From Candidatus Parcubacteria bacterium (GTDB lineage Bacteria > Patescibacteriota > Minisyncoccia > Phycocordibacterales > JAACPR01), in assembly GCA_009995365.1 (NCBI GenBank), contig JAACPR010000004.1:1-50320 (forward strand): 50,320 nucleotides of DNA, read 5' to 3'. Shown one piece after another: positions 7,487-26,433 of this stretch (the first letter of the stretch is position 1; every line of letters begins with the position of its first letter). Made by a program: the position numbers and the translations under genes. The notes under the pieces were generated by a model. That model saw only the letters and a program-made list of their open reading frames with translations. It searched no databases and was not told the DNA's origin.

Positions 7487-7562
7487 GTAGATAAGTGCTT
7501 AACAAAAGAGTATTTTAGCGATACTATATAATAACAATTAAATATAAGTGTAAGTACCTAAC

Positions 7563-8284: not shown

Positions 8285-8307
8285 TTATTAACTAAACAAC
8301 TATTAAA

Positions 8308-9090
8308 ATGCCTACAAAAATTCAAACTGAACAAATTTATAAAAAATTGAAAGATTATAAGAAAAGATATCTAAAAAAGAGTTATCTAGAGTTAGATGAG
8401 TCAGCGACAAGATTAATGATTAATAGTTTATTAACAGAAGTATTAGGATATGTCGAGTTGCAAGATATTAAAACCGAGTATCAAATTCGTGGAGAATATG
8501 CAGATTATGTAATTCAACTCAACAAAAAGAAACATTTTGTTGTAGAGGTTAAAGCCGTCCAATTAGATTTATCAGAAAAGCATCTTCGTCAAAGTATTGC
8601 GTATGCAGTCAATGAGGGAATTGATTGGATTTTGTTGACTAATGGTCGCCAGATTGAATTATATAGAGTCTTATTTAAAAAACCGATTGATGTTAAGCAG
8701 ATTTTTTCTTTTGATTTGTATGATTCAAATGAAATAAAAAAAGCATCTGAATACATAGCGTATCTTTCTAAAAAAAGTATTTTAAAAGATGAACTAAATA
8801 ATTTTTGGGCAAGATTTGAAGCGTTGGAGCCTAAAGACTTAAGTAAAAATCTTTATTCAATAGAAGTAATAAGATTTTTGAAGAAATCACTAAAAACAAA
8901 AACAGGAATTACATTTAGTGAAGATGATATTTTAGATTCAGTTCATCAAATTATAACGACAAAATTAGAGTCTGTAAAACCAAAAACTCCCGTTATTATT
9001 AACGTTAAAAAGAAAAGTACTAAATCAAAAGAAATAATCGTCAATGGTGTTGATGATAATATTCACAATACTGAATTAAATGAAAATTAA
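8308..9090 (+). CDS. HsdR-N-terminal-like PD-(D/E)xK nuclease-fold protein
   Basis: ESATRLMINSLLTEVLGY...GEYADYVIQL...FVVEVKAV...QSIAYA...WILLTNG follows the type I restriction HsdR N-terminal domain pattern (D...EVK core). Confidence 0.6.
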   Translation: MPTKIQTEQIYKKLKDYKKRYLKKSYLELDESATRLMINSLLTEVLGYVELQDIKTEYQIRGEYADYVIQLNKKKHFVVEVKAVQLDLSEKHLRQSIAYAVNEGIDWILLTNGRQIELYRVLFKKPIDVKQIFSFDLYDSNEIKKASEYIAYLSKKSILKDELNNFWARFEALEPKDLSKNLYSIEVIRFLKKSLKTKTGITFSEDDILDSVHQIITTKLESVKPKTPVIINVKKKSTKSKEIIVNGVDDNIHNTELNEN

Positions 9091-11813: not shown

Positions 11814-12644
11814 ATGACTAAAATACAAGAATATATTAATGAGTTAAAAGAAAAATCTGATAAAAGATTTGATGATTTTGATATTATCGAAATTGATAAC
11901 ATAAATTCCATATTAGATAAAGCTTATATTGATAAACCAACTTGGCTTGGTGGAGATAAAGAATTTGTCTGTCTTTTTATAGATCTTGATAAGTCTTCTA
12001 AAAAGTCTTTTAAGAAACACCCAAAAACAATGGCAAAAATTTATGATTATTTTACACAAAATATAGTAGATGTATTAAATCACCCCACTATTGGTGCAGA
12101 TTATATAGATATAAAAGGTGATGGTGCATTCGGAGTTTTCGGTGGGGACCAAGCTTCATTTAAGGCTTTTTATTGTGCAATAACCTTTAAAACACTTTTT
12201 GAAGAAAAGATTAAAAATAAATTTGGTACTGAGGAGGAATCCTTAGGGTGCAAAATTGGAATACACAAAGATAAGGTACTTGTTAGAAGAATAGGAAAAC
12301 GTGGCGAAGGTAATTATAATGAGGTCTGGGCTGGAAAACTTGTAAATAATGCATCAAAATTAGCGAGTCAAAAAATAGAACCTTCTAACCTAGGAGTTTT
12401 TGATCAAAATCTAATATTTGTCTCTGATAAGGTTTACAAAGATTTTGAAGATAATGAGGAATTCGGTCTATATCGTTGTTGTGATGTTAGTTCTGAAGAA
12501 AGTGTTTCCATTATTAATCAAAAAGTTCCAGTATTTACTAGAGTTGAAGAGCCATCAGAAGAAACATTAGGAGACTGTTTTTATAAGACGGATGTCAGGT
12601 GGTGTAATAAATGTGCTGATAAATATATTGATTTGATTAGATAG
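11814..12644 (+). CDS. class III nucleotidyl cyclase (PycC-like) with a Cys-rich C-terminal tail
   Basis: Metal-binding Asp motifs CLFIDLDKSS and IKGDGAFGVF. Cyclase core KIGIHKDKVLVRRIG...EVWAGKLVNNASKLAS. The tail is RCCD...GDCF...RWCNKC. Confidence 0.75.
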   Translation: MTKIQEYINELKEKSDKRFDDFDIIEIDNINSILDKAYIDKPTWLGGDKEFVCLFIDLDKSSKKSFKKHPKTMAKIYDYFTQNIVDVLNHPTIGADYIDIKGDGAFGVFGGDQASFKAFYCAITFKTLFEEKIKNKFGTEEESLGCKIGIHKDKVLVRRIGKRGEGNYNEVWAGKLVNNASKLASQKIEPSNLGVFDQNLIFVSDKVYKDFEDNEEFGLYRCCDVSSEESVSIINQKVPVFTRVEEPSEETLGDCFYKTDVRWCNKCADKYIDLIR

Positions 12645-12646
12645 AT

Positions 12647-13108
12647 ATGGAAAAACTAATTTTTAAATACAACACAATAACAAATTGGATTAATAATGCT
12701 GACCAAAAAGCCAATATAGCTTTCCCTGTGGAAGTTTTTATTTTGGGTTTTGTTATTAAGGAGCTTCCTGATAAGATTTTGAATGCAAGTTGTGTATATA
12801 CTTATATATTCGTATTTACTCTAATGTTAGGAATCTCGTCTATCTTTTTATTACTTAAAACTATTAGACCTGAGTTAAAAAATAAAGAAGGAAATTCAAA
12901 AATATTTTTTAAAGATATTAATGATAATTATAAAAAAGGAAAAATTGATATATTTGATCTTAATCAAAACGATAAGGATTTTGAAAAAGATTTAGAAAAT
13001 CAAATACTACAGTTATCAGTTGTGTGTACAAAAAAACAAAAAGCTATTTATTGGGTAACTTTATTTATATTCCTACAAATCCTATTGGTCTTTCTTATTT
13101 TTATTTAA
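12647..13108 (+). CDS. small TM protein, candidate Pycsar-type membrane effector
   Basis: The pattern NNADQKANIAF, then TM helices, then LKTIRPEL, then QILQLSVVCTKKQKAIYW and a terminal TM helix resembles the Pycsar-effector / former DUF family layout. This is from memory and is not verified. Confidence 0.5.
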   Translation: MEKLIFKYNTITNWINNADQKANIAFPVEVFILGFVIKELPDKILNASCVYTYIFVFTLMLGISSIFLLLKTIRPELKNKEGNSKIFFKDINDNYKKGKIDIFDLNQNDKDFEKDLENQILQLSVVCTKKQKAIYWVTLFIFLQILLVFLIFI

Positions 13109-13889: not shown

Positions 13890-14019
13890 ACCTTACCGGA
13901 CTTGTCCGACCACGGTTCTAGCACGAGACGGCTCACCGACATGTGAGACAGACCGAGTCTCCTAAATTAGCTATATTTTGCAATGTATTATTGGAACGAG
14001 TCATGGTCTACGACTTTTG
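13890..14019 (+). repeat. dispersed noncoding element, copy A (possible sRNA)
   Basis: Shares with copy B an identical 17-mer TCACCGACATGTGAGAC (13933-13949) and a 24-mer ACGAGTCATGG(T/A)CTACGACTTTTG (13996-14019), at the same 63-nt spacing. It also has a hairpin GAGAC-7nt-GTCTC. Confidence 0.5.
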
Positions 14020-14090
14020 TGATTTGTTTGAACTATAGAAAAGCTATATTTTAAAGCTTTATTTTTGGTTCGATTCCTTCATTGTTTTAA

Positions 14091-14119
14091 TTGACATAAA
14101 AACATTTTTTAGGTAATGT
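14091..14119 (+). promoter_or_regulatory. sigma70-type promoter of the YcaO fusion gene
   Basis: TTGACA (14091-14096), a 17-nt spacer, then TAATGT (14114-14119). The SD AAAGGA sits 8 nt before ATG 14168. Confidence 0.55.
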
Positions 14120-14167: not shown

Positions 14168-16351
14168 ATGAACAAAAACAGTATTCCTATCCTGTGGGCA
14201 TCTGCTAGTGTTTCTAGCAACAAAACAACTTTCAATACTCTCAGTAAAGAAGTTGTTGTTGATGCTCCAGGTCCAGTAATCAAACAAATCATCAGTCTCT
14301 GCGATGGTAGTAAATACCTAAAAGAAATTGTTGATTTGCTCGCAAAAGATTGGGATCGTGAATCTATTGAAGGACTTATCAGTGTTCTTATTCAGAAGCA
14401 AGTAATTTTGGATGGTAAAACTCTCGATAAAGAATTCTGGACTTCAATTACCAATCCAATACGTTTCCCGACAAATGTAAGCAACGAGCGTGTTGCTGAG
14501 TTGGTTTTGCAAGCTACTCAAAGACATCGTGAAGAAAGTGTCAAAAAAACTTATCGACCAAGTGTGAGCGATTTGTCGGAACTGATGAGTCACCGAAAAT
14601 CTGTGAGGATTTTTTCAGGAGAATCAATAGGCTTTCAAACAGTTGTTGATCTCTTGTGGAGTGCTTACGGAGAATGTCTGACTAAAGACGGAAAATCTCA
14701 TAGATCAATTCCGTCCGCTGGCGCACTTTACCCTCTGATTATTCATGTTGGCTTGTTTGTAAAAACAGGTGAACTTAAATCTGGAGTCTATCGTGTTGTC
14801 TATGGTCAGGACGGATCAGTTGGGTTCAATCTCGTGTCGACAGATATATTGAGGTTTGCCAGAGCTTTCTTGAGTCCTGCTGGTATTCAAGAAGGGATTC
14901 ATGGAGTTATTACAATTAGTGGTTCGTTTTCAGTATCGAATCAAAAATACGGTAACCGTAGCATGTTGTATGTTCCGATTGAAGCTGGGCATTCTGCTCA
15001 GAATATTCTCTTGGAAGCAACACGGCAAAACGTGGCAACTCTCGAGATTGGAGGGTTTGTAGATGAGCTTTTGGCAAAATCTATTGAACTTCCAGAGGAT
15101 TACCATCCTCTCACTCTGGTGGCTTTTGGTAAGGAAAAAGAGCAATCTTATTCTAAACTAGAGCCATCTATCGAGATCGATTGGGCGATTCCAATGGTAC
15201 AAGGTTATAATCCTGGTTTTGCTATTGCGTCAGTTCGTTTATCAAAAGAACGGATCTGGTCACACGGCAGAGATCCGTCTCCTGAGATGGCTTTGAAAAA
15301 AGCAATTTCAGAAACTAAGGAGTGGACATCTTGTGGGTGTGTTCCCGAACTGACATATTCAACATTTGGTGAGTTGGAAAATGCTATCGATCCTCGAGAG
15401 ATTATTCAATTCCATCAAAGTCAGTATCGGATTAAAGGTTTTCCATTTGTGTCGTTTGATGAAAGTGTGAGTTACGGATGGACTAAGGGGTATGATTTAG
15501 CAGGTAAAGAATTTTATATCTGTGCTGATCAGGTTTATTTCCCTTATTTTCCTGACACACCCTGTTTTTGCTACTCGAATTCTTCGGGTTGTGCGGCACA
15601 TCCAGATCGACAGACTGCGATTGAGACAGGAACGCTTGAGTTGGTTGAGCGTGACGCTTTCATCAATTCATATTTCTGCAAACTCGATAGACCTTATGTC
15701 GATACAGATACGCTTCCTGATTCAATTGAGAAGCGAATCCAAGACTTGGAGTCTGCAGGGTTTAAAGTTTGGGTCATTGACCACTCTCTTGATCTAGCAC
15801 CAGTTGTGTTTGTCTTTGCACAAAACGAAGACATTCACTATTCTACTTGTGCTTCGTGTTCGAGTTTCGATATTGAACACGCTGTCAGTCATGCACTTAT
15901 GGAGGTTGAGGCTTCGGTCTTACACCGACTTCAGCACGGAAAGCCTGACGAGATTAAACCAAATGAGGTTATCTGGCCAAACGATCATGGTAAGCTTTAT
16001 GGACAAAAGCAATTTTTCCAGAGGGCTGACTTTTTGGTCGAAAGTTCAAAGAGGATCTCTTTCCGAGAAATCGGTGGTTTCTCAGCTCTGACTTGGTCAG
16101 AACTCCTCGATCGTTTTGAGAATAAGGGTTGGAAGCACCTAGTGGTTCCACTCAAACTCTCTGATGATTATGGTGGCAACGGTGATTCGAATATCGTTCG
16201 TGTAATTGTTCCCGGGACTGTTCAGATGACCTTTGGTTATCGACAAGAACCTGCGGGCATGAAACGACTCTACGACATTTCCGAAAGGTTTGGTAATGGA
16301 AGAAGGCTGTCTTATGGGCAGTTAACTAAATTTCCTCATCCTTTCGAGTGA
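14168..16351 (+). CDS. fused RRE-like / SagB-type FMN dehydrogenase / YcaO cyclodehydratase
   Basis: - N-terminus: PGPVIKQIISLCDGSKYLKEIVDLL is PqqD/RRE-like.
- SagB motifs: RKSVRIFSG, IPSAGALYPL, NQKYGNRSMLY (Lys-Tyr), EAGHSAQNILLEA.
- YcaO motifs: SNSSGCAAHPDRQTAIETGTLELVERDAF and the C-terminal FPHPFE (PxP tail). Confidence 0.85.
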   Translation: MNKNSIPILWASASVSSNKTTFNTLSKEVVVDAPGPVIKQIISLCDGSKYLKEIVDLLAKDWDRESIEGLISVLIQKQVILDGKTLDKEFWTSITNPIRFPTNVSNERVAELVLQATQRHREESVKKTYRPSVSDLSELMSHRKSVRIFSGESIGFQTVVDLLWSAYGECLTKDGKSHRSIPSAGALYPLIIHVGLFVKTGELKSGVYRVVYGQDGSVGFNLVSTDILRFARAFLSPAGIQEGIHGVITISGSFSVSNQKYGNRSMLYVPIEAGHSAQNILLEATRQNVATLEIGGFVDELLAKSIELPEDYHPLTLVAFGKEKEQSYSKLEPSIEIDWAIPMVQGYNPGFAIASVRLSKERIWSHGRDPSPEMALKKAISETKEWTSCGCVPELTYSTFGELENAIDPREIIQFHQSQYRIKGFPFVSFDESVSYGWTKGYDLAGKEFYICADQVYFPYFPDTPCFCYSNSSGCAAHPDRQTAIETGTLELVERDAFINSYFCKLDRPYVDTDTLPDSIEKRIQDLESAGFKVWVIDHSLDLAPVVFVFAQNEDIHYSTCASCSSFDIEHAVSHALMEVEASVLHRLQHGKPDEIKPNEVIWPNDHGKLYGQKQFFQRADFLVESSKRISFREIGGFSALTWSELLDRFENKGWKHLVVPLKLSDDYGGNGDSNIVRVIVPGTVQMTFGYRQEPAGMKRLYDISERFGNGRRLSYGQLTKFPHPFE

Positions 16352-16357
16352 TGTTTT

Positions 16358-16394
16358 GAGGCGGAAAGCTAACAACTTTCCGCCTCTTTTTTTA
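16358..16394 (+). terminator. rho-independent terminator
   Basis: GAGGCGGAAAG-CTAACAA-CTTTCCGCCTC (11-bp stem) followed by TTTTTTT. Confidence 0.85.
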
Positions 16395-16411
16395 TTTGTT
16401 AGTATAAGACT

Positions 16412-17224
16412 ATGAATAAGGATTTATCACAAATTGAATTTTACTTCCCAAAAGGTAGTTTTAATAACAAAGAAGAAATTGTAGATCAGATAATTTCTTT
16501 TATGAAAGAAAAAGGTAGTACAGACTATTCTGGCTATGCAGATTTAGATTTGCTTAAACAAGGCCTATTAGATTATATTGGAAATGGTGATAGTTCAGAC
16601 TATCAATCTATTTCTGAAGATAAACAAAAAGAAATTGAAAATATTATTTCTGACACTGTTGAAAAATGTAATGAAAATTTATCTGTGCCTACTAAAAATT
16701 TTATTTTTGTTCATCCATATTTTCCGACAAAAGATGACGAAGTATTTGATGGGGTAATGGCAGTTGCTGTTTATAGTTGTGTTTTTCATTTATTTATTAA
16801 TCTAGAACAAGCGACAAAAGAATCTATTGAAAATACTGTTGCACATGAATTGAATCATACAACCTACTATTATCATCATTATGATGATTTTAATAATTAC
16901 ACTCTGTTAGATGAGATTTTATTGGAAGGTTTAGCCGAAAATTTTCGAGAACAACATTTTAAACCAGAAATTACTAAATGGGCCGGGGCATTAGAAAAAG
17001 ATGAGGCTTTACAAATATTAAAAGATTTAAATAAAGAGATATTAAATTCAACGGATCAAAAAGTCATTAGAGATTTTCTTTTTGGAAATGAAAAATATAA
17101 AAGATGGACTGGGTACTCAGCAGGTTATTGGTTAGTTAAAGAGTTTATAAATAAAAACTCAGAAATGTCTTGGAAAGAATTAATGAAGATTGATAAAGAA
17201 AAGTTTCTAGAAGTTTTATATTAA
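16412..17224 (+). CDS. HExxH zinc metallopeptidase-like protein (DUF2268-like)
   Basis: VAHELNHTTYY (HExxH) with a downstream EGLAENF that could supply the third ligand. Confidence 0.55.
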   Translation: MNKDLSQIEFYFPKGSFNNKEEIVDQIISFMKEKGSTDYSGYADLDLLKQGLLDYIGNGDSSDYQSISEDKQKEIENIISDTVEKCNENLSVPTKNFIFVHPYFPTKDDEVFDGVMAVAVYSCVFHLFINLEQATKESIENTVAHELNHTTYYYHHYDDFNNYTLLDEILLEGLAENFREQHFKPEITKWAGALEKDEALQILKDLNKEILNSTDQKVIRDFLFGNEKYKRWTGYSAGYWLVKEFINKNSEMSWKELMKIDKEKFLEVLY

Positions 17225-17264
17225 AAAAAGAAGGACGTAATAACATGGAAGTCATTACGTCCTT
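17223..17264 (-). terminator. rho-independent terminator serving the minus-strand small ORF
   Basis: AAGGACGTAAT / ATTACGTCCTT is a perfect 11-bp stem (17231-17241 and 17254-17264). The U-tract is on the minus strand only (plus-strand AAAAAAA at 17223-17229). Confidence 0.8.
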
Positions 17265-17288
17265 ATGAGGGCTGAGGCGAGAGCAATG

Positions 17289-17417
17289 CTATTTACTCCC
17301 ACATTTGCCGTTGCCACTATCTCCAGAAGATCTGCACTGTGCCTGGCACACAACGGTGCCGGGAAGAGGCTTGTCTTTGGAGGTGACATTCCAAGAGAAT
17401 TTTTTGGGATTCTTCAT
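17289..17417 (-). CDS. unannotated 42-aa Cys/Ser/Gly-rich peptide, candidate RiPP precursor
   Basis: My manual reverse-strand translation gives MKNPKKFSWNVTSKDKPLPGTVVCQAQCRSSGDSGNGKCGSK then TAG. The SD AAAGGAGA lies 8 nt upstream of the ATG. The terminator lies 25 nt downstream. The ORF falls below the 60-aa cut-off of the ORF track. Confidence 0.6.
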   Translation of the reverse strand: MKNPKKFSWNVTSKDKPLPGTVVCQAQCRSSGDSGNGKCGSK

Positions 17418-17491
17418 GGTAGTGGTCTCCTTTCTATTTTCGAGGTTAACTTTCGGTTTTCAAGGGAAAAGAACTTCTTTTCCTATCTAAA

Positions 17492-17519
17492 ATACTATTA
17501 TTTATAGAACTTTTGTCAA
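17492..17519 (-). promoter_or_regulatory. candidate promoter of the 42-aa ORF
   Basis: On the minus strand: TTGACA (plus-strand 17514-17519), a 16-nt spacer, then TAGTAT (17492-17497). The 5' UTR contains the hairpin GGAAAAGAAGTTCTTTTCC. Confidence 0.45.
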
Positions 17520-17574
17520 GAGTTCTAAATAAAAACTCAAATTTTTATTAAATAGTTATAAAATTAATACGCAC

Positions 17575-17700
17575 CATTCAAGGGCGACCGAGACGGTTCG
17601 AATCCTGCTGCGGTCACCGACATGTGAGACCTATCGAGACGCCTGAAATCGTCTTTTCTCACCATTTTACTTTCGCACGAGTCATGGACTACGACTTTTG
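17575..17700 (+). repeat. dispersed noncoding element, copy B (possible sRNA)
   Basis: Same conserved blocks as copy A (17614-17630 and 17677-17700, spacing 63 nt). It has an extra minihelix, GACCGAGACGG-TTCGAAT-CCTGCTGCGGTC (17586-17615), with a T-loop-like GGTTCGAATCC. It ends 13 nt before ATG 17714. Confidence 0.5.
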
Positions 17701-17713
17701 CTAGAATTGTTAT

Positions 17714-18727
17714 ATGTATAAAAACATTAAAGAACTAGATTTTTTAGATCTTGAACACAAGGATAACCTTAATAAATTTTATTCTTGGATTCCTGGTCTA
17801 CGTCTATCAGATAAAATTAAAGATCGTAACATAAAATTAGAAGACGGTTTTTTTATTTGCTCACAAGAACAGCATAAAACTTATAGAAAAATTATAGGTG
17901 ATTATGTTAAAGAAAATTTTAATGTAGTAAATATTAGTTCAGTTGTTTTGTATTTTAAATATCCAAAAGATAATAGATATTATTTTGTTGCTCAAGATAA
18001 AGTAAGAAGGTTTTTAACTTCTGTAAAGATTTTCTATAATCAAAATGTCGACAGTATTTTAGAACTCTCTGTTTGTGATAATAAAGATGAGAAATATTTC
18101 AGGATAGATAATCTTTCTGAACATAGTGATAGACAAAGAGAGTTAATTACAGATGTATATTGGAGAAGAAATTTTATAGAAATTGAAAATGAAGAATATC
18201 TAAAAAAGATAAAGAAGATATATAATAACTTAGGAATCGCTGATGTTGAGAATTTTAATAAATATTCTCCTTTACATAATTCTATAAAATTTTATGAACA
18301 TTCTTATCGTGAGAGATGGGCCCTATTAAAAACAATGTTACTTTTCGTTTCGCTAGAGAGTATATTAGGAGAAAAAACAGAAATTACATATAAAATTTCA
18401 TCTAGAGCATCTTATTTGCTTTATCCGAAAAATAGTAAAAAACGTCTAGAAATTTTCAACTTTCTAAAGAAAGTATATGGTATTCGAAGTAGTTTTGCTC
18501 ATGGTGGTAATGTTGAAACAGATATAAGAAAGATTGAAAAACAAATGAAAGAAAATAAGGGTGTTGATTATTATGGTTTTCATGATGACTTTGTGAAAGA
18601 TTTAGAAAGTATAGTGATCGGATGTTTAAAGATTATATTATTAGATAAAAAACTTACTGAATTATTTTCTTCTACTACAAATAGTAAAAAAATATCAAAG
18701 TTTCTAGACGAATTAGTTATTGGATAA
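17714..18727 (+). CDS. hypothetical protein with a C-terminal HEPN-like Rx4H motif
   Basis: YGIRSSFAHGGN (R-x4-H) sits in a helical C-terminal half. The N-terminal half is unrecognised. Confidence 0.4.
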   Translation: MYKNIKELDFLDLEHKDNLNKFYSWIPGLRLSDKIKDRNIKLEDGFFICSQEQHKTYRKIIGDYVKENFNVVNISSVVLYFKYPKDNRYYFVAQDKVRRFLTSVKIFYNQNVDSILELSVCDNKDEKYFRIDNLSEHSDRQRELITDVYWRRNFIEIENEEYLKKIKKIYNNLGIADVENFNKYSPLHNSIKFYEHSYRERWALLKTMLLFVSLESILGEKTEITYKISSRASYLLYPKNSKKRLEIFNFLKKVYGIRSSFAHGGNVETDIRKIEKQMKENKGVDYYGFHDDFVKDLESIVIGCLKIILLDKKLTELFSSTTNSKKISKFLDELVIG

Positions 18728-18729
18728 TT

Positions 18730-20064
18730 TTATTTAATAAATATTTTCTTATCTCTCAACACCAACTCACTTCTCAGATTTTTTAATAATTCTCGCTTCT
18801 CGTATATAGGTCTAGTTCTTAAAATGTGTTTCGCATAATTTCTGATATCGATTTCTTTAATTTTAACTTTTTCGTTAACTTCTTTTCCTAAAACAGATTT
18901 TTGAAATTCATTGTGTGATTGTATTGTTTCTTTGATTTTGTCTTTCATTCCGATTTTATCTAAATCTACGGTATCTAATACCTCTGCAATCTGATCAATC
19001 AAAGCTTCTTCTCGAATATGTTCACATTTGCAATCTTTATCGTGAAATTTTGTACATCTGTAATATACATAACGAGCTTGAGTTCCATCTTTTAATTTTT
19101 TAAATTTCTCATCGGCAGTTATTCCTGATCCACACAATCCGCATTTAATCATTTTAGTGAATGCAAACTCTTTGTTTTGAGTTCGTACTTGTTGATCGGC
19201 TGTAATTTGTTTTTGAACTTGTAAGTATAAGTCTTTGGTGACAATCGGTTCATGTTTTCCTTTATACCAATTATCGCTATTTTTAGGATATTCAAATTCT
19301 CCGTAATAGAAGGTGCTTTTTAAAATTATGTAAATATTGCTCAAGGTTAAAGGTTTTCCTCTTCTGGTTGTGAATCGAATATCATCCCGAAGCCAATAGA
19401 ATACTTTACGTCCAGACCAACCATTGTAGGCTACTTTTTCATATATTTGTTTAATAATGTCATATCTTTGTTCATCCTTGATCACTTCACACTTTTTATT
19501 TCTATCAGGGTTAGGAAGATAACCAGTAGGTGGTACAGATGGCCATAACCCCATCTCACATCTCGCTCTCAGTCCTCTTTTTACATTCACTACTTTATTA
19601 TCATTCTCTAGTTTAGCTTGTGAGCCTAGAATCATTAATAGGAACTTTTCATTTGGATTGTTGGTAAATTTCTGTCCGTAGGTTCGAATTTCAATGAGTA
19701 GCTTTTGATCCATTAAATCTACAACCGAACCAAGGTCTCCTGCGTTTCTAGATAACCTATCTGGTGCCCAAGTTAATATTCCATTAAATTTACCTTCGCG
19801 AACTTCTTGGAGTAGTTCATTATAGACTGGTCGCTTACCAACTTCTTTGGATGAATGTGATTCTCTTTTTATTTCCACAATTTCTAGCCCTTCACGCTCG
19901 GCAAGAGTAGTCATTTCTCGAACCTGAGATTCTATTGATAAAGCTTGCTTATCCTCTTGCTCGGTTGATTTTCGAGCGTAAAGACAGTATTTAATTGGTA
20001 CTTGGTCTTGTAATATTTTCGATTTCTCATCAGAAGTCACTTGTAGCGGGTTTGTTATTTGCAT
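18730..20064 (-). CDS. large serine recombinase
   Basis: Resolvase catalytic region YARKSTEQEDKQALSIESQ...RLSRN, a recombinase domain, and a zinc ribbon CGLCGSG...YYRCTKF. Confidence 0.9.
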   Translation of the reverse strand: MQITNPLQVTSDEKSKILQDQVPIKYCLYARKSTEQEDKQALSIESQVREMTTLAEREGLEIVEIKRESHSSKEVGKRPVYNELLQEVREGKFNGILTWAPDRLSRNAGDLGSVVDLMDQKLLIEIRTYGQKFTNNPNEKFLLMILGSQAKLENDNKVVNVKRGLRARCEMGLWPSVPPTGYLPNPDRNKKCEVIKDEQRYDIIKQIYEKVAYNGWSGRKVFYWLRDDIRFTTRRGKPLTLSNIYIILKSTFYYGEFEYPKNSDNWYKGKHEPIVTKDLYLQVQKQITADQQVRTQNKEFAFTKMIKCGLCGSGITADEKFKKLKDGTQARYVYYRCTKFHDKDCKCEHIREEALIDQIAEVLDTVDLDKIGMKDKIKETIQSHNEFQKSVLGKEVNEKVKIKEIDIRNYAKHILRTRPIYEKRELLKNLRSELVLRDKKIFIK

Positions 20065-20175: not shown

Positions 20176-23100
20176 ATGGAAAAAATAATAGATAATAAAA
20201 AAACTAGGATAATTGATGTCTTAAAGAGTGGTATTAAAAAAGATTCAAAATTATCTATTATCTCTGCTTACTTCACAATTTATGGTTTTGATAAATTAAA
20301 AGACCAGTTAGAAAATATCGACAGTTTAAAATTTCTATTTATTGAACCAACTTTTATAAAAGAAAAAGAGGAAAAAAGAGAATTTTATATTAATCGTAAA
20401 AATAGAGAGAAACAGATTTCTGGTACAGAATATGAAATTAAATTAAGGAACGAACTTAGACAATCTGAAATTGCAAAAGAATGTGCAGAATGGATTCGTG
20501 AAAAAGTTGAATTTAAGTCTCTCAAAAAAACAGATACTTCGAGTGCTAGAACAATTAATGTTCAGAATTCAGACGGATCAAATTTCGTTATAAATGGTCA
20601 AATGGATTTTACCGCATCAGGTTTAGGAGTGACTCAATCCAAAAAGTATGAAATACACAGCTATTCAGATGAAAAAAATGCAACCACCGAAGCACTAAGT
20701 TGGTTTGATGAAATTTGGGATAACGAAGAATTGGCAGAAGAAGTCAAAGATGAAGTTCTGAAAAATATTGAAACAATTTATAATGAAAATACACCTGAAT
20801 TTATTTACTTTGTAACTCTTTATAATATTTTTAGAGAATATTTAGATGACTTAGCAGAAGAAAACATAATTAAGCCAAAAACAGGATTTGCTGAAACAAA
20901 AGTCTGGAATAAGCTATATCAATTTCAAAAGGATGGAGTTATGGGTGCAATCAGTAAATTAGAAGATCATAATGGTTGTATTATTGCTGACAGTGTTGGA
21001 CTTGGAAAAACTTTCGAGGCCTTGGCGGTTATTAAATATTACGAATTAAGAAATCACCGAGTTTTAGTTTTATCCCCTAAAAAATTGCGGGATAACTGGA
21101 ATATGTACAGGATGAATGATGTAAGAAATATTCTGTCAGAAGATAGATTTGGTTACGATATCCTAAATCATACAGATCTAAGTCGTGAGAAAGGTATGTC
21201 TGGTGATATAAACATTGAAACAGTAAATTGGGGTAATTACGATCTAATTGTAATTGACGAGTCTCACAACTTTAGAAATAACGATCCACGAAAAGGAAAG
21301 AAAACTCGGTATCAAAAATTAATGGAAGATATTATTAAGAGTGGAGTTAAAACGAAGGTTTTGATGCTGTCTGCTACTCCTGTTAATAATAAAATGACCG
21401 ATTTAAAAAATCAGGTCGCCTTTATAACAGAGGGAAATGATAGGGCACTTTCTGAATCTGGAATTCCTAGTATTCAAGAAACTTTAAGGGTTGCTCAATT
21501 AATTTTTAATAAATGGCAAGACAAACCCATAGCAGAAAGAAAACTAGAGGACTTACTAAAGTCATTTAATATTAATTACTTTAAGTTGTTAGACACCCTA
21601 ACCATTGCCAGATCTAGAAAACACATAGAAAAATATTATGATCTAACAGAGATAGGTAAATTTCCAGAAAGATTAAAACCCGAAAATAAAAAATCTGGAG
21701 TCGATCTTAAAAACGAATTTTCTGATTTTAATGAAATAAATAATACAATTAGTAAATTAAAACTTTCTATATATTCTCCACTTCAGTATGTTTTACCTAA
21801 TAAAGTTAAATATTACGAAGAAAAATACGATATGGTTGTTAATGAAGGCCAATCTAGTTTTAAACAATCTGATAGAGAGAAAAACATTGTAAATCTAATG
21901 AGAGTTAATATTCTAAAAAGACTTGAAAGTTCTGTTTATTCATACAATTTAACTCTAAATAAAATTGATTCAAAGATAACCAATGTATTAAATAAAATTG
22001 AAAACATTAATGAAAATGATTTTTTCGAGACAGACTCAGAAGATCAAGAAGAAAGTATTGACGGAGATGACGAACAACTGGAATCAATGATGATTGGCGA
22101 CAAAATTAGAGTCTCATTGAAGGATATGGATTTAGTTAGGTGGAAAGAAGATTTAGAAGATGATCATCAGAAATTTCAGGAACTAATTAATCAGTCAAAA
22201 ACTATTACACCAAAAAGAGATGAAAAATTGGATACATTAAAGAAAATTATTACAGATAAAATTAAAAATCCAATAAATGACGGTAATAATAAAATTTTGA
22301 TTTTTTCTGCCTACGCTGATACTGCAAATTACCTCTACGATAATTTATCTGATTGGATCAAAGAAGAATTTAAAATTCATACTGCTCTCGTTACTGGTGG
22401 AGGTTCGAACAAGGTGACATCAAAATTAATTCCTAATCATTTTGATTCAGTACTAACTAACTTCTCACCAATCTCAAAAGAAAGAGACAAGATTTATCCT
22501 GATCTTAAGGATGAAATTGATATTTTGATTGCTACAGATTGTATTTCAGAAGGTCAAAACTTGCAGGACTGCGATTGTTTAATTAATTACGATATTCACT
22601 GGAACCCAGTTAGGATTATTCAACGGTTCGGTCGAATTGATCGTATTGGTTCTAAAAATGACAGAGTTAAGTTAATTAACTTTTGGCCCGATATGGAACT
22701 CGAATCATATATTAAATTGGAGCAAAGAGTTAGAGGTAGAATGATGCTTCTAAATACCTCTGCTACTGGAGAAGAAGATTTAATTAATGAATCTGAACAA
22801 GAAGTAATGAATGATATTGAGTACCGTAAAAATCAACTAATGAAGCTTCAAGAGGAAATAGTTGACCTAGAAGACGTGTCAGGAAACATTTCGATTACAG
22901 ACTTAACTATGAATGATTTCAGAATGGATTTGGCTTCGTATATGAAAGAACACAAAGACGAGTTAGAAAATGCACCTCTTGGCATGTATGCGGTTGCTGA
23001 TAAAAAATTACTTGGAGAAAATATTGAATCTGGAATAATTTTTGCTCTAAAACAGGCGAATTTTTCGGAATTAGAATCTAAAGAAGTAAATGCTATTCAT

Positions 23101-23433
23101 CCATATTATATGGTTTATATTCAAAATGATGGTCATGTAAAATATGGTTATACTCAAGCGAAATATGTTTTAGATATTTTTAAAAAATTATGTAATGGAG
23201 TTGATGATGTAAATAAAGATTTAACAAAAATATTCAATTCTGAAACAGATGATGCAAGAGATATGAAAGAGCAATCTAGATTATTAGAAAAAGCCGTTCA
23301 AAATATAATTGGTAAAAAACAAGAGACAGGAGCGTCTGAATTATTTAGTCTTGGAAAAACAACAATTGCCCAACAAAGCTTATTAAATGGTCTAGATGAT
23401 TTTGAATTAGTGTCATTCTTAATTATCAAATAA
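20176..23433 (+). CDS. SNF2-family helicase with an N-terminal PLD-like region
   Basis: Motif I DSVGLGKT, motif II VIDESHNFRN, motif III LSATPVNN, motif VI QRFGRIDRIGS. Confidence 0.9.
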   Translation: MEKIIDNKKTRIIDVLKSGIKKDSKLSIISAYFTIYGFDKLKDQLENIDSLKFLFIEPTFIKEKEEKREFYINRKNREKQISGTEYEIKLRNELRQSEIAKECAEWIREKVEFKSLKKTDTSSARTINVQNSDGSNFVINGQMDFTASGLGVTQSKKYEIHSYSDEKNATTEALSWFDEIWDNEELAEEVKDEVLKNIETIYNENTPEFIYFVTLYNIFREYLDDLAEENIIKPKTGFAETKVWNKLYQFQKDGVMGAISKLEDHNGCIIADSVGLGKTFEALAVIKYYELRNHRVLVLSPKKLRDNWNMYRMNDVRNILSEDRFGYDILNHTDLSREKGMSGDINIETVNWGNYDLIVIDESHNFRNNDPRKGKKTRYQKLMEDIIKSGVKTKVLMLSATPVNNKMTDLKNQVAFITEGNDRALSESGIPSIQETLRVAQLIFNKWQDKPIAERKLEDLLKSFNINYFKLLDTLTIARSRKHIEKYYDLTEIGKFPERLKPENKKSGVDLKNEFSDFNEINNTISKLKLSIYSPLQYVLPNKVKYYEEKYDMVVNEGQSSFKQSDREKNIVNLMRVNILKRLESSVYSYNLTLNKIDSKITNVLNKIENINENDFFETDSEDQEESIDGDDEQLESMMIGDKIRVSLKDMDLVRWKEDLEDDHQKFQELINQSKTITPKRDEKLDTLKKIITDKIKNPINDGNNKILIFSAYADTANYLYDNLSDWIKEEFKIHTALVTGGGSNKVTSKLIPNHFDSVLTNFSPISKERDKIYPDLKDEIDILIATDCISEGQNLQDCDCLINYDIHWNPVRIIQRFGRIDRIGSKNDRVKLINFWPDMELESYIKLEQRVRGRMMLLNTSATGEEDLINESEQEVMNDIEYRKNQLMKLQEEIVDLEDVSGNISITDLTMNDFRMDLASYMKEHKDELENAPLGMYAVADKKLLGENIESGIIFALKQANFSELESKEVNAIHPYYMVYIQNDGHVKYGYTQAKYVLDIFKKLCNGVDDVNKDLTKIFNSETDDARDMKEQSRLLEKAVQNIIGKKQETGASELFSLGKTTIAQQSLLNGLDDFELVSFLIIK

Positions 23434-23434
23434 A

Positions 23435-24175
23435 ATGGAAGATAAAATCATAAAAATATTTAATTTAGAAAAAGAGGTAGTTCAAAATAGAAAAATCAAA
23501 AGTATTTTTTATGAACACGAAAAATTTAATGCAGAAAAGAAAAGATTATTTGATGATGCAGTAGAAAATATAAAATTAGTGGGGCTATTTAATGACGACA
23601 CAATTAACATTCCAAAATATAAAGACGAAGAGTTTTTATATGAAGAGATATATTTAATCCATATAGAGTTAAAAGATAAAAAGCAATATACTCGAGTTGT
23701 GAGTGTAATACATGAATTTATAGAAAATCCTGTAATTTTAGTTTTAAGTTATGAAAAAGAGATTCAGTTATCTGGTTCCATAACTAGAATTAATAAAAAA
23801 ACCCAAGAAAAAGGAATAACAGAAGATCTATTTCAAACACCGTGGATCAGTATCGATGATGAATCAGTAAAATATTTAGATACCAAGAAATATTCATACG
23901 AATCATTAAAAAAGTTTTATGAAGAATATCTGCGTGTAATGTTATGTTTTAATTTAGTTGAAATTATTGGAGAGTTTAAATATGTACCAAAATACGCTAT
24001 ACTAGACCTAAGAGTAATTATTGAAAAATACGCTTTATTAAAGGCTCAGATTGACTCTCTGAAGCAAAACCAGAAGCAATCAGTAGGTTTTGGAGATAAA
24101 GTAGAAATTCAAGAAAAAATTATTAAATTACAGAAGGAATTAGAAATCATTAAACAACAAGTAAAAGAATTATGA
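23435..24175 (+). CDS. DUF4391-like protein
   Basis: The position between the SNF2 helicase and the methylase, plus size and composition, fit DUF4391. The assignment is from memory of that gene neighbourhood, not from a motif. Confidence 0.4.
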   Translation: MEDKIIKIFNLEKEVVQNRKIKSIFYEHEKFNAEKKRLFDDAVENIKLVGLFNDDTINIPKYKDEEFLYEEIYLIHIELKDKKQYTRVVSVIHEFIENPVILVLSYEKEIQLSGSITRINKKTQEKGITEDLFQTPWISIDDESVKYLDTKKYSYESLKKFYEEYLRVMLCFNLVEIIGEFKYVPKYAILDLRVIIEKYALLKAQIDSLKQNQKQSVGFGDKVEIQEKIIKLQKELEIIKQQVKEL

Positions 24176-26067
24176 AAAAACTAGACGGCAAATCAAAAGA
24201 TATCTTAGATGATAATGTTTCAAAAATAAGAGAAATGTTTCCAGAAGTATTCGAAGAGGGGAAAATAGATTTTGAATATCTTAGAAAAATACTTGGGGAT
24301 GCGGTTGATTCTAACAATGAAAAATATTCTTTTACTTGGAATGGAAAATCCGATGCTATCAAAACTGCTCTAAAACCTACCACTGCAACATTGCGGCCTG
24401 ATAAAGAATCTAGTAAAAACTGGGATACTACAGAAAACTTATTTATAGAAGGGGACAATTTAGAAGTATTAAAGGTTCTTCAAGATTCTTATAGGAATAA
24501 AGTAAAGATGATTTATATTGATCCTCCGTATAACACTGGTCACGACTTTGTTTATAATGACAAGTTTAATGATACTGTAGAGGATTATAAAGAGAGAACA
24601 GAGCAGGCAATGATGTCTAATGCAGATTCAAGTGGTAGATATCATACTAATTGGTTGAATATGATGTACCCAAGACTTCGCTTGGCTAGAAATCTGTTAA
24701 AAGATGATGGGGCTATTTTTATTTCCATTGATGACAATGAGGTTGCCAACTTAAGAAAAATTTGTGATGAGATTTTTGGTGAAAATAATTTTGTCAACGC
24801 TATAGCTGTTAAAATGAGTGAAACTTCTGGGGTTAAAATGAGCCATTCAGATAATAGATTACCTAAAATAAAAGAATATGTATTAATTTATTCTAAAAAT
24901 TATAAAAAAATTAATTTTAATTCAGTTAAATTACATAAAAGTGATGAACCTAAAAAAATAGAAAAATATCTTAAATATTATTCCAAAATTATAGAAAACC
25001 TAAATGACGATCCATCTAAATGGTCTATTATTGACATAAAAAAATATATTGAAAAAAATAGTATAGAAATAAAAGATGATAGTGAGTTAAATGAATTTAA
25101 ATTTAAGAATGCTAATAGGATTGTTTATAGAACAAATAATAAGGCTTTTGAAGGTTTAAAATTTGATAATCCTATTAATAAAGTTATTTCTTCTACGGGG
25201 ATTGAGTATATATGGTGGGAAGGTAAACAAATGCTTTTTCTTTCTGATTATTTAGAAGAAGGTTTGTGTGATCTATGGACACATATTTCAACTATTAATA
25301 TAAACAAAGAAAGTCATGGGATACCTACTTACATCAATGGACAAAAACCCAGGGAATTAATAGAGTTATGTGCAAGTTTAGTCTTAGATCAAGATGACCT
25401 AGCGCTTGATTTTTTTGCCGGATCAGGTACAACGGCAGATGCTATTTTGAAATTCAATACGGATAATGATAGAAAAAATAAATTTATAATGGTTCAAATA
25501 CCAGAAAAGATCGAAACAACATCTGGAATGAATTCTAAGACAAAAAACACAACAAAACAGTTAATGAGTTTTCTAGATGAAATTAATAGGCCACATTTCT
25601 TAACAGAGATTGGTAAAGAAAGAATTAAAAGATCTAATAATAAATTTAAACAACCATTTGAAGAATGTAGAGGTTTTAAAGTTTTTAAATTAGATTCAAC
25701 AAATCTAACTCAATGGGATTCACAAACAGAAGATTTAGGAAAAACTCTTGAAGAATCAATTAATTCTGCAAAATCAGATAGAACACAGGAAGATGTCCTG
25801 TATGAAGTATTATTGAAATATGGAATAAACCTAACGACTCCTATATTAGAAGAAGAAATAAATGATAAAAAAATATTTTCTATCGCGGGAGGGTTTTTAC
25901 TAGTCTGTTTAGAGAAAGATGTTGATTTAGATACAATTTCAAAAATTGCAGAAAAGAAACCTGAAAGAGTTGTATTTTATGATCACGGATTTAAAGATGA
26001 TATGACGAAACTTAATGCAGAACAGACTCTTAAAAAGGCTGGTGTTGAGGATATAAGAATTATTTAA
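24172..26067 (+). CDS. type III Mod-like N6/N4 DNA methyltransferase
   Basis: Motif IV MIYIDPPYNTG precedes motif I LDFFAGSGTTADA (beta-class order). The start overlaps the upstream stop as ATGA. Confidence 0.85.
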   Translation: MKKLDGKSKDILDDNVSKIREMFPEVFEEGKIDFEYLRKILGDAVDSNNEKYSFTWNGKSDAIKTALKPTTATLRPDKESSKNWDTTENLFIEGDNLEVLKVLQDSYRNKVKMIYIDPPYNTGHDFVYNDKFNDTVEDYKERTEQAMMSNADSSGRYHTNWLNMMYPRLRLARNLLKDDGAIFISIDDNEVANLRKICDEIFGENNFVNAIAVKMSETSGVKMSHSDNRLPKIKEYVLIYSKNYKKINFNSVKLHKSDEPKKIEKYLKYYSKIIENLNDDPSKWSIIDIKKYIEKNSIEIKDDSELNEFKFKNANRIVYRTNNKAFEGLKFDNPINKVISSTGIEYIWWEGKQMLFLSDYLEEGLCDLWTHISTININKESHGIPTYINGQKPRELIELCASLVLDQDDLALDFFAGSGTTADAILKFNTDNDRKNKFIMVQIPEKIETTSGMNSKTKNTTKQLMSFLDEINRPHFLTEIGKERIKRSNNKFKQPFEECRGFKVFKLDSTNLTQWDSQTEDLGKTLEESINSAKSDRTQEDVLYEVLLKYGINLTTPILEEEINDKKIFSIAGGFLLVCLEKDVDLDTISKIAEKKPERVVFYDHGFKDDMTKLNAEQTLKKAGVEDIRII

Positions 26068-26069
26068 TT

Positions 26070-26432
26070 ATGGATAAAGAAATTCAGAAATTTATATTAG
26101 AATCTCTAAAAAAAAGAAATTATTTAGATCTTGAAAAGACTATAGTTGAAGATGTAAGTAAAACAGTATGGAAAGAGAAAAAACCAATACCAGCAGACAA
26201 AATTGTGAAGCATAATGCTAAAATGTTAAATGATAAAGGGTTGATACATTTTGTGGATAACCAAGTAGGACGATACTATCAGATGACATTACAAGGTAAA
26301 AGGACTTTTGATCCTTGGCACAAAAAAGCTTGGTATTGGATTTTATATGATAAAAATAATCTTTATACGATATTGTCTGTTTTAATATCTTTAACTGCAA
26401 TAATTGTGTCGGTAATTGCACTAAATAAATAA
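26070..26432 (+). CDS. small protein with a C-terminal TM anchor
   Basis: The C-terminal helix is LYTILSVLISLTAIIVSVIAL. The N-terminus may be wHTH-like. It lies between the mod-like and res-like genes with 2-nt and 1-nt gaps. Confidence 0.4.
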   Translation: MDKEIQKFILESLKKRNYLDLEKTIVEDVSKTVWKEKKPIPADKIVKHNAKMLNDKGLIHFVDNQVGRYYQMTLQGKRTFDPWHKKAWYWILYDKNNLYTILSVLISLTAIIVSVIALNK

Positions 26433-26433
26433 A

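What the first reader, a model, noticed from the sequence alone, without database searches (positions are those of the whole stretch)
17289..17417. Unannotated 42-aa ORF with a strong SD, its own promoter and a dedicated terminator
The reverse-strand translation gives MKNPKKFSWNVTSKDKPLPGTVVCQAQCRSSGDSGNGKCGSK. The ATG is preceded by AAAGGAGA at 8-nt spacing, the best SD I saw in the window. A TTGACA-16-TAGTAT promoter candidate lies about 75 nt upstream. The perfect 11-bp hairpin at 17231-17264 has its U-tract only on the minus strand. The segment is much GC-richer than its surroundings. The ORF is below the 60-aa cut-off of the supplied track, which instead lists two plus-strand shadow ORFs here. 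The layout, a basic N-terminal half followed by C-x3-C...GKCGS, fits a leader-plus-core arrangement.
Basis: seen in the sequence. Interest (0 to 1): 0.8.

Follow-up and report, generated by a model that had tools for sequence, protein, structure and literature searches.

The report
Unannotated azole-peptide precursor gene
The 42-codon reading frame is a real, conserved gene for the small precursor peptide of a three-gene azole-peptide (microcin-B17-like) cassette found in ultra-small Patescibacteria (CPR bacteria); it is a sound catch of a missed gene, but of a kind of cluster already reported in these bacteria.

Summary
ORF 17289-17417(-), its SD, the TTGACA-16-TAGTAT promoter, the minus-strand terminator and the GC peak are all present.

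The ORF is a real gene:
- The same peptide gene lies convergent to, and just after, a DUF2268 protease gene and a nitroreductase-YcaO fusion gene in all 10 distinct related loci examined.
- These loci span 92% to 47% YcaO identity and sit in unrelated genomic contexts.
- Only the proposed frame is open in all 8 close homologues. It has the lowest pN/pS (0.20), and every indel is a multiple of three.
- Promoter, a 5'-UTR hairpin with compensatory changes, SD and terminator are conserved in position.

A profile search found 16 more peptide clusters. The family signature is P-K-x-F-x-W-x-V ... Q-x-Q-C-S-S-G-G-G-G-N-G-K-C.

The neighbouring 727-aa enzyme models as RRE + SagB-type dehydrogenase + YcaO, so the peptide is most likely the precursor of a linear azole-containing peptide. 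No Rfam family matches the region.

LAP clusters in CPR bacteria were reported in 2020, so the kind is known. Three things look undescribed: this precursor family, the single-chain enzyme without an E1/ThiF-like partner, and the DUF2268 protease pairing. Chemistry and function are inferred, not shown.

The parts
17289..17417 (-). Precursor peptide gene (42 aa). Leader about residues 1-23 with the F7-x-W9-x-V11 recognition motif. Core about residues 24-42, CQAQCRSSGDSGNGKCGSK, with family-invariant C28 and C39.
17426..17433 (-). Shine-Dalgarno AAAGGAGA, 8 nt before the ATG.
   Evidence: AGAAAGGAG or GGAGG sits at the same place in all related loci.
17465..17483 (-). 5'-UTR stem-loop GGAAAAGA-AGT-TCTTTTCC, at or near the predicted 5' end of the transcript. 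Probably an mRNA-stabilising element (inferred).
   Evidence: 96% of cells paired against 50-68% for slid controls, and 3 of 8 pairs have changes on both sides. Only 7 sequences.
17492..17519 (-). Sigma-70-type promoter TTGACA-16-TAGTAT of the peptide gene.
   Evidence: The -35 is invariant in the alignments. Homology with relatives ends about 50 nt upstream of it.
17222..17264 (-). Intrinsic terminator of the peptide gene: 14-bp stem, 6-nt loop, T-tract.
   Evidence: Every related locus has a strong hairpin plus T-tract right after the stop, with different stem sequences.
14168..16351 (+). 727-aa single-chain modifying enzyme. N-terminal RRE (about residues 1-82), SagB-type FMN dehydrogenase (about 140-325), YcaO cyclodehydratase (about 335-727), C-terminal FPHPFE.
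   Evidence: Pfam YcaO 1.7e-41 and Nitroreductase 1.1e-10. NCBIfam. AF2 model with pLDDT 85. Foldseek. Invariant K260-Y261 and P723.
16412..17224 (+). DUF2268 predicted Zn metalloprotease (HELNH motif). Inferred leader peptidase.
   Evidence: Pfam DUF2268 9.5e-31. HELNH is kept in relatives. Always lies between the YcaO and peptide genes.
14091..14119 (+). Promoter-like TTGACA-17-TAATGT upstream of the YcaO fusion gene.
   Evidence: Read. Conserved in 8 loci in the alignment.
16358..16386 (+). Terminator-like hairpin between the YcaO and DUF2268 genes. Its role, full stop or attenuation, was not examined.
13890..14020 (+). Left copy of a diverged direct repeat that brackets the cassette. It consists of the decayed 3' part of a tRNA plus about 95 nt of tRNA-downstream sequence.
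17570..17700 (+). Right copy of the same repeat. It begins where homology of the cassette to its relatives ends.

Best explanation
ORF 17289-17417(-) is a translated gene. It encodes the precursor peptide of a compact three-gene RiPP cassette of a Patescibacteria (CPR, Paceibacterota-like) genome.

Shown:
- The gene, its frame and its expression signals are conserved.
- It is strictly linked to an RRE-dehydrogenase-YcaO fusion gene and a DUF2268 gene.

Inferred mechanism:
1. The peptide is transcribed from its own promoter as a short monocistronic mRNA with a 5' stem-loop and an intrinsic terminator.
2. The leader motif P-K-K-F-S-W-x-V pairs as a beta-strand with the N-terminal RRE of the 727-aa enzyme.
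3. The YcaO domain uses ATP to cyclodehydrate the invariant Cys28 and Cys39, and possibly the adjacent Ser, to azolines.
4. The fused SagB-type FMN dehydrogenase oxidises the azolines to azoles.
5. The DUF2268 Zn protease removes the leader.
6. The product is a small Gly-rich thiazole/oxazole peptide of the linear azol(in)e-containing (microcin-B17-like) type.

Its target and biological role are unknown.
For: Coding:
- Peptide homologues at 85-89% identity were found in the protein database.
- The gene is found at the same place and orientation in all 10 distinct loci of the YcaO-fusion family that were inspected. These are L001-L005, L008-L011 and L014, with YcaO identity from 92% down to 47% and unrelated flanking genes.
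- pN/pS in the proposed frame is 0.195 with no stops. Every other frame gives 0.29 or more and has stops.
- Indels are 3 nt or multiples of 3.
- A profile search of 1.84 billion representatives gave 16 further small proteins with the same two conserved blocks.

Expression signals:
- The -35 box, SD and terminator are conserved in position.
- The 5' hairpin shows compensatory changes.

Enzyme:
- Pfam YcaO and Nitroreductase hits.
- The best NCBIfam models are TOMM SagD-type (155 bits) and SagB (60 bits), against 54 bits for the thioamidation type.
- The AF2 model has pLDDT 85.
- Whole-protein Foldseek hits are LynD/TruD, MusD, ThcOx, BmdC and McbC/McbD.
- For the isolated N-terminal 100 aa, 15 of the 16 best PDB hits contain RiPP recognition elements: TruD, LynD, PbtF RRE, TbiB1, ThcOx and McbB, with TM 0.5-0.7. 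MccB appears further down the list.
- K260-Y261 and the C-terminal PHP motif are conserved in 37 homologues.

Precedent: LAP clusters with YcaO + nitroreductase + peptidase are reported in 93 CPR genomes (PMC7298704).
Against: - There is no transcript, translation or mass-spectrometry evidence.
- No E1-like or Ocin-ThiF-like partner, which azoline-forming YcaOs normally need, is present in the enzyme or conserved nearby (flanks).
- The NCBIfam SagD and SagB hits fall below the curated cut-offs.
- There is no transporter or immunity gene in the conserved cassette.
- The Cys residues are preceded by Q or K rather than the Gly often favoured by cyclodehydratases (general knowledge).
- The window's core departs from the family consensus (E26A, an extra R29, G33D, G34S), although all invariant positions are kept.
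- In two distant loci (L013, L015) a 1-nt indel puts the SD-linked ATG out of frame.
Confidence: 0.8

Rival explanations
1. The segment is a non-coding RNA, or a chance ORF inside one, and the conservation is at the RNA level.
For: The segment is GC-rich in an AT-rich genome and is flanked by a promoter and a terminator. This is also the look of an sRNA gene. The 5' region does contain a conserved hairpin.
Against: No Rfam family hits the region at gathering threshold, and nothing meaningful appears at E<=10. Third-position bias, pN/pS of 0.20 in one frame only, in-frame indels and an invariant SD-ATG arrangement argue for coding. At 47-55% enzyme identity the protein motifs persist while the nucleotide sequence has diverged.
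Confidence: 0.03
2. The peptide is real and translated but is not the YcaO substrate. It could be an unmodified Cys-rich bacteriocin, a metal-binding peptide, or an immunity or regulatory peptide, with the true precursor encoded elsewhere.
For: No modification has been observed. The enzyme lacks the usual E1/ThiF-like partner. The gene is on the opposite strand with its own promoter.
Against: The peptide gene is linked to the enzyme gene in 10 of 10 distinct loci in unrelated contexts. The enzyme carries an RRE whose only plausible ligand in the cassette is this peptide. The peptide has a leader-like conserved beta-strand motif and a Cys/Ser/Gly core typical of azole peptides. No other conserved small ORF was seen in the cassette's intergenic regions, though this was not searched exhaustively.
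Confidence: 0.08
3. The peptide is the substrate, but the YcaO installs a different modification, such as a thioamide, an amidine macrocycle, or azolines left unoxidised, rather than azoles.
For: YcaO enzymes without E1/ThiF partners are known for thioamides and amidines (general knowledge; PMC7136475). Structural neighbours include the thioamide-forming archaeal YcaOs. The SagD and SagB scores are below the NCBIfam cut-offs.
Against: No TfuA gene is present in the cassette. A SagB/ThcOx-type dehydrogenase with an invariant Lys-Tyr is fused to the YcaO, which only makes sense for azoline oxidation. The SagD-type model scores 155 bits against 54 for the thioamidation model. The invariant residues of the core are two Cys.
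Confidence: 0.09

Closest known systems
LAP clusters of CPR bacteria reported by Sharrar et al. 2020 (mBio, PMC7298704)
   Same: Same phylum-level group (Parcubacteria/Paceibacterota). Same gene content by function: YcaO, nitroreductase-type dehydrogenase, peptidase and a small precursor.
   Different: That report is an antiSMASH-level survey. Its example, from Microgenomates, has separate YcaO and nitroreductase genes and an 84-aa putative precursor. Here the enzymes are one chain with an RRE, and the precursor is a 42-aa family with its own signature. I found no name for that family in Pfam or NCBIfam. I could not check whether these exact loci are among their 110 clusters.
Microcin B17 system (McbA precursor; McbBCD synthetase), E. 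coli
   Same: A leader plus a Gly-rich core with Cys/Ser that becomes thiazoles and oxazoles. YcaO (McbD) and FMN dehydrogenase (McbC) are structural neighbours of the two catalytic domains. The McbB RRE is a neighbour of the N-terminal domain. A C-S pair in the core could give a fused bis-heterocycle as in MccB17 (inference).
   Different: No detectable sequence homology between the precursors. There is no E1-like McbB equivalent beyond the RRE, and no McbEFG export/immunity genes. The protease here is DUF2268 rather than TldD/E. The core is much shorter, at about 19 aa with 2 invariant Cys.
Cyanobactin heterocyclase LynD/TruD/PatD and oxidase ThcOx
   Same: These are the best structural matches for the YcaO domain and the RRE (LynD/TruD), and for the RRE-plus-nitroreductase half (ThcOx). 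The leader is recognised by an RRE that is part of the enzyme chain.
   Different: LynD/TruD carry an E1-like domain between the RRE and YcaO, and the oxidase is a separate protein or is fused to PatG. Here the dehydrogenase occupies the position between the RRE and YcaO. There are no macrocyclase or PatA/PatG proteases, and the product is presumably linear.
Uncharacterised fused 'YcaO-like family protein' of a Rothia nasimurium plasmid (NZ_CP056081.1, WP_185174892.1)
   Same: A single 708-aa protein aligning over residues 8-632 of the query in one piece. This suggests the same fused layout outside the CPR.
   Different: Only 26% identity. The neighbours are different, with no DUF2268 annotated. 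No precursor was examined.

Membership tests
Linear azol(in)e-containing peptide (LAP/TOMM) biosynthetic cluster | YcaO-superfamily cyclodehydratase (D protein) | tested here: met
   Pfam YcaO at 1.7e-41, covering 2-324 of 325 profile positions and above the gathering score. Foldseek hits to LynD/TruD/McbD. C-terminal FPHPF, a PxPxP-like motif, is conserved.
Linear azol(in)e-containing peptide (LAP/TOMM) biosynthetic cluster | YcaO scores as SagD-type TOMM cyclodehydratase at the curated threshold (TIGR03604) | tested here: not met
   155.2 bits against a cut-off of 219.25. It is still the best-scoring YcaO model, ahead of the thioamidation type at 54 bits.
Linear azol(in)e-containing peptide (LAP/TOMM) biosynthetic cluster | E1-like (C protein) or Ocin-ThiF-like (F protein) partner, fused or adjacent (definition in PMC4603692 and PMC7136475) | tested here: not met
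   No such domain appears in the Pfam or NCBIfam scans of the 727-aa protein. The AF2 domain map of RRE 1-82, dehydrogenase 140-325 and YcaO 335-727 leaves no room for one. Flanking genes differ between loci. Only the RRE part of such partners is present.
Linear azol(in)e-containing peptide (LAP/TOMM) biosynthetic cluster | Leader-binding RiPP recognition element | tested here: met
   The model of the N-terminal 100 aa (pLDDT 87) has a beta-sheet followed by three helices. Of its 16 best PDB matches, 15 contain RREs: TruD, LynD, PbtF, TbiB1, ThcOx and McbB. Sequence-level support is weak only: PqqD at E=0.038 and PaaA_N at E=0.07.
Linear azol(in)e-containing peptide (LAP/TOMM) biosynthetic cluster | FMN-dependent SagB-type dehydrogenase (B protein) | tested here: inconclusive
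   Pfam Nitroreductase at 1.1e-10, above its cut-off. NCBIfam SagB reaches 60.3 bits against a cut-off of 78.4. Structural neighbours are BmdC, ThcOx and McbC. The Lys-Tyr pair is invariant in 37 homologues. The role of that motif is taken from memory of the TOMM dehydrogenase literature.
Linear azol(in)e-containing peptide (LAP/TOMM) biosynthetic cluster | Small precursor with a conserved leader and a Cys/Ser/Thr-bearing core encoded in the cluster | tested here: met
   The 42-aa peptide has a conserved P-K-x-F-x-W-x-V block and a Q-x-Q-C-S-S-G-G-G-G-N-G-K-C block. C28 and C39 are invariant in 22 sequences. The gene is present in all 10 distinct loci.
Linear azol(in)e-containing peptide (LAP/TOMM) biosynthetic cluster | Azole/azoline heterocycles in the mature product | not testable with these tools
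   This needs mass spectrometry of the modified peptide.
Microcin B17 precursor family (McbA) | Sequence homology of the precursor to McbA or other named precursor families | tested here: not met
   The peptide and two relatives gave no Pfam hit (window peptide, E<=0.01) and no NCBIfam hit (E<=1). The similarity is in composition only.

The most novel reading that the evidence does not exclude
The cassette is a self-sufficient, minimal azole-peptide factory. One polypeptide (RRE-dehydrogenase-YcaO) recognises the leader, cyclodehydrates and oxidises without any E1-like or ThiF-like partner, and it is paired with a DUF2268 leader protease. This three-gene unit moves between tRNA-adjacent sites in CPR genomes. 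In the window it lies between two decayed tRNA-3' repeats inside a defence island. It makes a conserved Gly-rich bis-thiazole peptide that these episymbionts use against hosts, competitors or phage.
Probability: 0.3. Interest if true: 0.65.

Novelty: new variant of a known kind. Interest (0 to 1): 0.5.

Why it matters
**Missed gene.** Gene callers and a 60-aa cut-off missed the key gene of a biosynthetic cassette. Without it the neighbouring YcaO fusion is routinely mislabelled, for example as 'ribosomal protein S12 methylthiotransferase accessory factor' in JGI records.

**A small testable system.** Natural products of CPR/Patescibacteria are almost unexplored, and I found no report of a characterised CPR RiPP in the papers searched. 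This cassette is small enough to synthesise and test directly: three genes, about 3.4 kb, with a defined 42-aa substrate.

**Possible partner-independent enzyme.** If the single-chain enzyme works without an E1/ThiF-like partner, it would be a compact tool for installing azoles in peptides. It would also add a partner-independent class to azoline-forming YcaOs.

**A search handle.** The family signature (P-K-x-F-x-W-x-V ... Q-x-Q-C-S-S-G-G-G-G-N-G-K-C) gives a way to find the other members.

Tried and rejected
- Rfam at gathering threshold over the whole window, and at E<=10 over 17100-17800. Nothing credible overlaps the ORF, so the known-ncRNA reading was rejected.
- ARAGORN on the window found no tRNA or tmRNA. 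I had suspected a tRNA/tmRNA fragment at 17570-17640. It turned out to be a decayed tRNA 3' remnant, recognisable only by alignment to the intact tRNA-Glu of L009.
- Pfam and NCBIfam scans of the peptide and two relatives gave no family.
- A PDB sequence search with DUF2268 gave no hit. A PDB profile search with the N-terminal domain gave only noise. The fold search was needed to identify the N-terminal domain.
- A tblastn search of phage records with the enzyme found nothing, so there is no sign that the cassette is phage-borne.
- A search for a second precursor copy in the window found none.
- I first read the C-terminal half as a hypervariable core. The wider family alignment shows that the core block is in fact the best-conserved part, so I dropped that reading.
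- I considered recent horizontal import as the reason for the GC peak. I rejected it because the order peptide > YcaO > DUF2268 in GC and GC3 holds in all 10 loci whatever the host GC.
- Papers on the LOOT RNA motif gave nothing useful.
- P0124, a 966-aa repeat protein, matched the peptide profile and was set aside as spurious.

Full report
**1. The observation**

- The minus-strand ORF 17289..17417 translates to MKNPKKFSWNVTSKDKPLPGTVVCQAQCRSSGDSGNGKCGSK.
- AAAGGAGA lies at 17433-17426, 8 nt before the ATG.
- The scan tool reports TTGACA-16-TAGTAT at 17519-17492(-). It also reports a terminator at 17264-17231(-) with 14 pairs (11 perfect, then one G-T, then two more), a 6-nt loop and the tail CTTTTTTTAA.
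- Promoter-like hits are not enriched in this AT-rich region (13 found, 13.1 expected). The promoter gains weight only from its conservation, described below.
- GC is 51-53% in 100-nt windows over the ORF against 24-36% beside it. The CDS ranks in the top 0.65% of 129-nt windows.

**2. It is a coding gene**

- A database search with the peptide found three proteins at 85-89% identity. All three lie convergent to a DUF2268 gene that follows a nitroreductase-YcaO fusion gene.
- Starting from the fusion enzyme instead, I collected loci from 92% down to 47% enzyme identity.
- In every one, a small minus-strand ORF of the same family sits directly after DUF2268. This covers 10 distinct loci: L001-L005, L008-L011 and L014. 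Gene callers had missed it in most of them.
- The flanking genes differ from locus to locus. Examples are IF-2/RbfA, Mur ligase/PBP, DNA ligase and ArgRS. The conserved unit is therefore the three genes.
- On the ungapped first 28 codons of 8 close homologues:
  - The proposed frame has pN/pS 0.195 and no stop codons.
  - The other five frames give 0.29 to 2.4, and each has stops in some sequence.
  - Fifteen of 26 variable columns are third positions (P=0.009).
- Indels are 3 nt in the window and multiples of 3 in L003.
- Rfam finds nothing here.

**3. Expression signals are part of the conserved unit**

- The DNA alignment of the window with L008 and L009 is continuous from the DUF2268 stop, through the terminator, CDS, 5' UTR and promoter, to about 50 nt beyond the -35 box. 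Homology is then lost at about 17565.
- The -35 TTGACA, the SD AGAAAGGAG and the ATG are invariant in the closer loci.
- More distant loci keep a GGAGG and a strong hairpin plus T-tract after the stop, with different stem sequences.
- An 8-bp stem-loop at 17483-17465(-) lies at the predicted transcript start:
  - It is paired in 96% of cells, against 50-68% when the partner columns are slid.
  - Three of its pairs have changes on both sides (only 7 sequences, so modest evidence).
  - I read it as a 5'-terminal stabilising hairpin. This is inference.

**4. What the peptide is for**

*The neighbouring enzyme, 14168-16351*
- It has Pfam Nitroreductase and YcaO domains.
- Its best NCBIfam models are the TOMM SagD-type cyclodehydratase and the SagB dehydrogenase. 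Both score below the curated cut-offs.
- An AlphaFold2 model from 37 homologues (pLDDT 85) shows three domains.
- Whole-chain Foldseek neighbours are LynD/TruD, MusD, thioamide YcaOs, BmdC, ThcOx and McbC/McbD.
- The first 100 residues, modelled alone (pLDDT 87), match RiPP recognition elements almost exclusively:
  - The matches are TruD, LynD, the PbtF RRE, TbiB1, ThcOx and McbB.
  - These account for 15 of the 16 best PDB hits.
  - MccB appears further down the list.
- Lys260-Tyr261 and the C-terminal PHP motif are conserved across the family.
- No E1-like or ThiF-like domain is present.

*The protease*
- DUF2268 carries HELNH.

*The peptide family*
- A profile search of 1.84 billion representatives added 16 peptide clusters.
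- The 22-sequence alignment shows two conserved blocks. These are P-[KR]-x-F-x-W-x-[VI] near the N-terminus and Q-x-Q-C-[SR]-[SC]-G-x-G-G-x-G-x-C.
- C28 and C39 are invariant. The linker and tail are variable, and C24 is not conserved.
- The alternating F-x-W-x-V is what a strand docking on an RRE sheet would look like. This is inference.

*Conclusion*
- The most likely reading is a precursor of a linear azole-containing peptide. The two invariant Cys would become thiazoles. A C-S pair could give a fused bis-heterocycle as in microcin B17; this too is inference.

**5. Comparison with what is known**

- Sharrar et al. 2020 reported LAP clusters (YcaO, nitroreductase, peptidase) in 93 CPR genomes, 51 of them Parcubacteria (PMC7298704). 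The only named genome hit for this enzyme is a Candidatus Paceibacterota MAG. The kind is therefore known.
- By the published definition of TOMM/LAP clusters, the cyclodehydratase consists of a YcaO plus an E1-like or ThiF-like partner (PMC4603692; PMC7136475). That feature is not met here, because only the RRE is present.
- I therefore file this as a variant that works like a LAP system, not as a canonical member.
- A fused homologue at 26% identity exists on a Rothia plasmid and is uncharacterised.
- The precursor family matches no Pfam or NCBIfam model.

**6. Weak points**

- There is no expression or chemistry data.
- The partner protein is missing.
- The cassette has no exporter or immunity gene.
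- The window's core differs from the consensus at four positions, while keeping all invariant residues.
- Two distant loci carry a 1-nt indel after the start codon.

**7. Context noticed**

- The cassette in the window is bracketed by diverged direct repeats at 13890-14020 and 17570-17700 (72% identity ungapped over the 87-nt core; 79% mean column identity over a gapped alignment with flanks).
- Alignment to L009 identifies them as the decayed 3' part of a tRNA plus its downstream sequence.
- Intact tRNA genes lie just upstream of the enzyme gene in five other loci: Glu (two loci), Ile, and Leu (two loci).
- The window around the cassette is a defence island. It holds Pycsar, an HKD-Snf2 helicase, DUF4391, a type III restriction-modification system and a large serine recombinase.

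**Verdict**

It is a well-supported but not surprising member of the CPR LAP clusters. The enzyme architecture and the precursor family appear undescribed.

Noticed in passing
window 13890-14020 and 17570-17700 (+): Diverged direct repeats (72% identity ungapped over the 87-nt core; 79% mean column identity over a gapped alignment that includes flanks) bracket the three-gene cassette exactly. Aligned to L009, they correspond to the 3' part of tRNA-Glu(ctc) plus about 95 nt downstream of it. Neither copy is a recognisable tRNA any more: ARAGORN finds none in the window, and Rfam finds none over copy 2 (copy 1 was covered only by the gathering-threshold scan). This looks like the scar of tRNA-targeted insertion or duplication.
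   Followed up: partly
L009 4699-4772, L010 4644-4716, L004 3567-3640, L001 10757-10839, L005 3723-3808: An intact tRNA gene lies immediately upstream of the YcaO-fusion gene, on the same strand, in five other loci. The tRNAs are Glu-ctc (two loci), Ile-tat, Leu-tag and Leu-taa. This suggests the cassette is a small mobile islet that lands next to tRNA genes. No integrase is conserved within it.
   Followed up: partly
window 11814-13108, 18730-20064, 20176-29424: The cassette sits in a defence island. Upstream are a Pycsar cyclase PycC (5e-64) and PycTM effector. Downstream are a large serine recombinase, an HKD+Snf2 helicase (PADLOC C3a139, 3.7e-143), DUF4391, and a type III methyltransferase and restriction enzyme.
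   Followed up: partly
window 7555-7675 (+) and 37943-38064 (+): Two matches to the Rfam LOOT RNA (RF03000) above the gathering score, at 80.5 and 49.9 bits. Both lie in local GC peaks of the AT-rich window. Their function and neighbouring genes were not examined.
   Followed up: no
L013 and L015 about 8300-8312 (-), compared with L014: In two of three near-identical groundwater contigs, a 1-nt difference in an A4C3/A4C6 run right after the start codon puts the SD-linked ATG out of frame with the conserved peptide. This could be an assembly error, a pseudogene or homopolymer phase variation.
   Followed up: partly
window 16358-16386 (+): A strong terminator-like hairpin (11 bp, 7 G-C, then TTTTTTTATT) lies in the 60-nt gap between the YcaO-fusion and DUF2268 genes. 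The two enzyme genes may therefore not be simply co-transcribed.
   Followed up: no
window 14168-17417 and the same genes in 9 other loci: GC3 of the peptide gene is 54-77% in all loci, while DUF2268 is always the most AT-rich of the three genes (GC3 15-48%), whatever the host GC (30-54%). The cause was not examined; codon selection on a highly expressed short mRNA is one possibility.
   Followed up: partly
window 17714-18727 (+): A 337-aa ORF starts right after the right-hand repeat. It has no Pfam, NCBIfam or PADLOC match and lies between the cassette and the serine recombinase gene.
   Followed up: no
L016 3989-6115 (Rothia nasimurium plasmid NZ_CP056081.1): A 708-aa 'YcaO-like family protein' aligns in one piece to residues 8-632 of the window enzyme at 26% identity. 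The fused dehydrogenase-YcaO layout therefore also occurs in an actinobacterial plasmid. Its precursor was not looked for.
   Followed up: no
protein database entries P0006, P0032, P0039 and others: Several members of this enzyme family are named 'ribosomal protein S12 methylthiotransferase accessory factor' in JGI records. That annotation hides their RiPP context.
   Followed up: no
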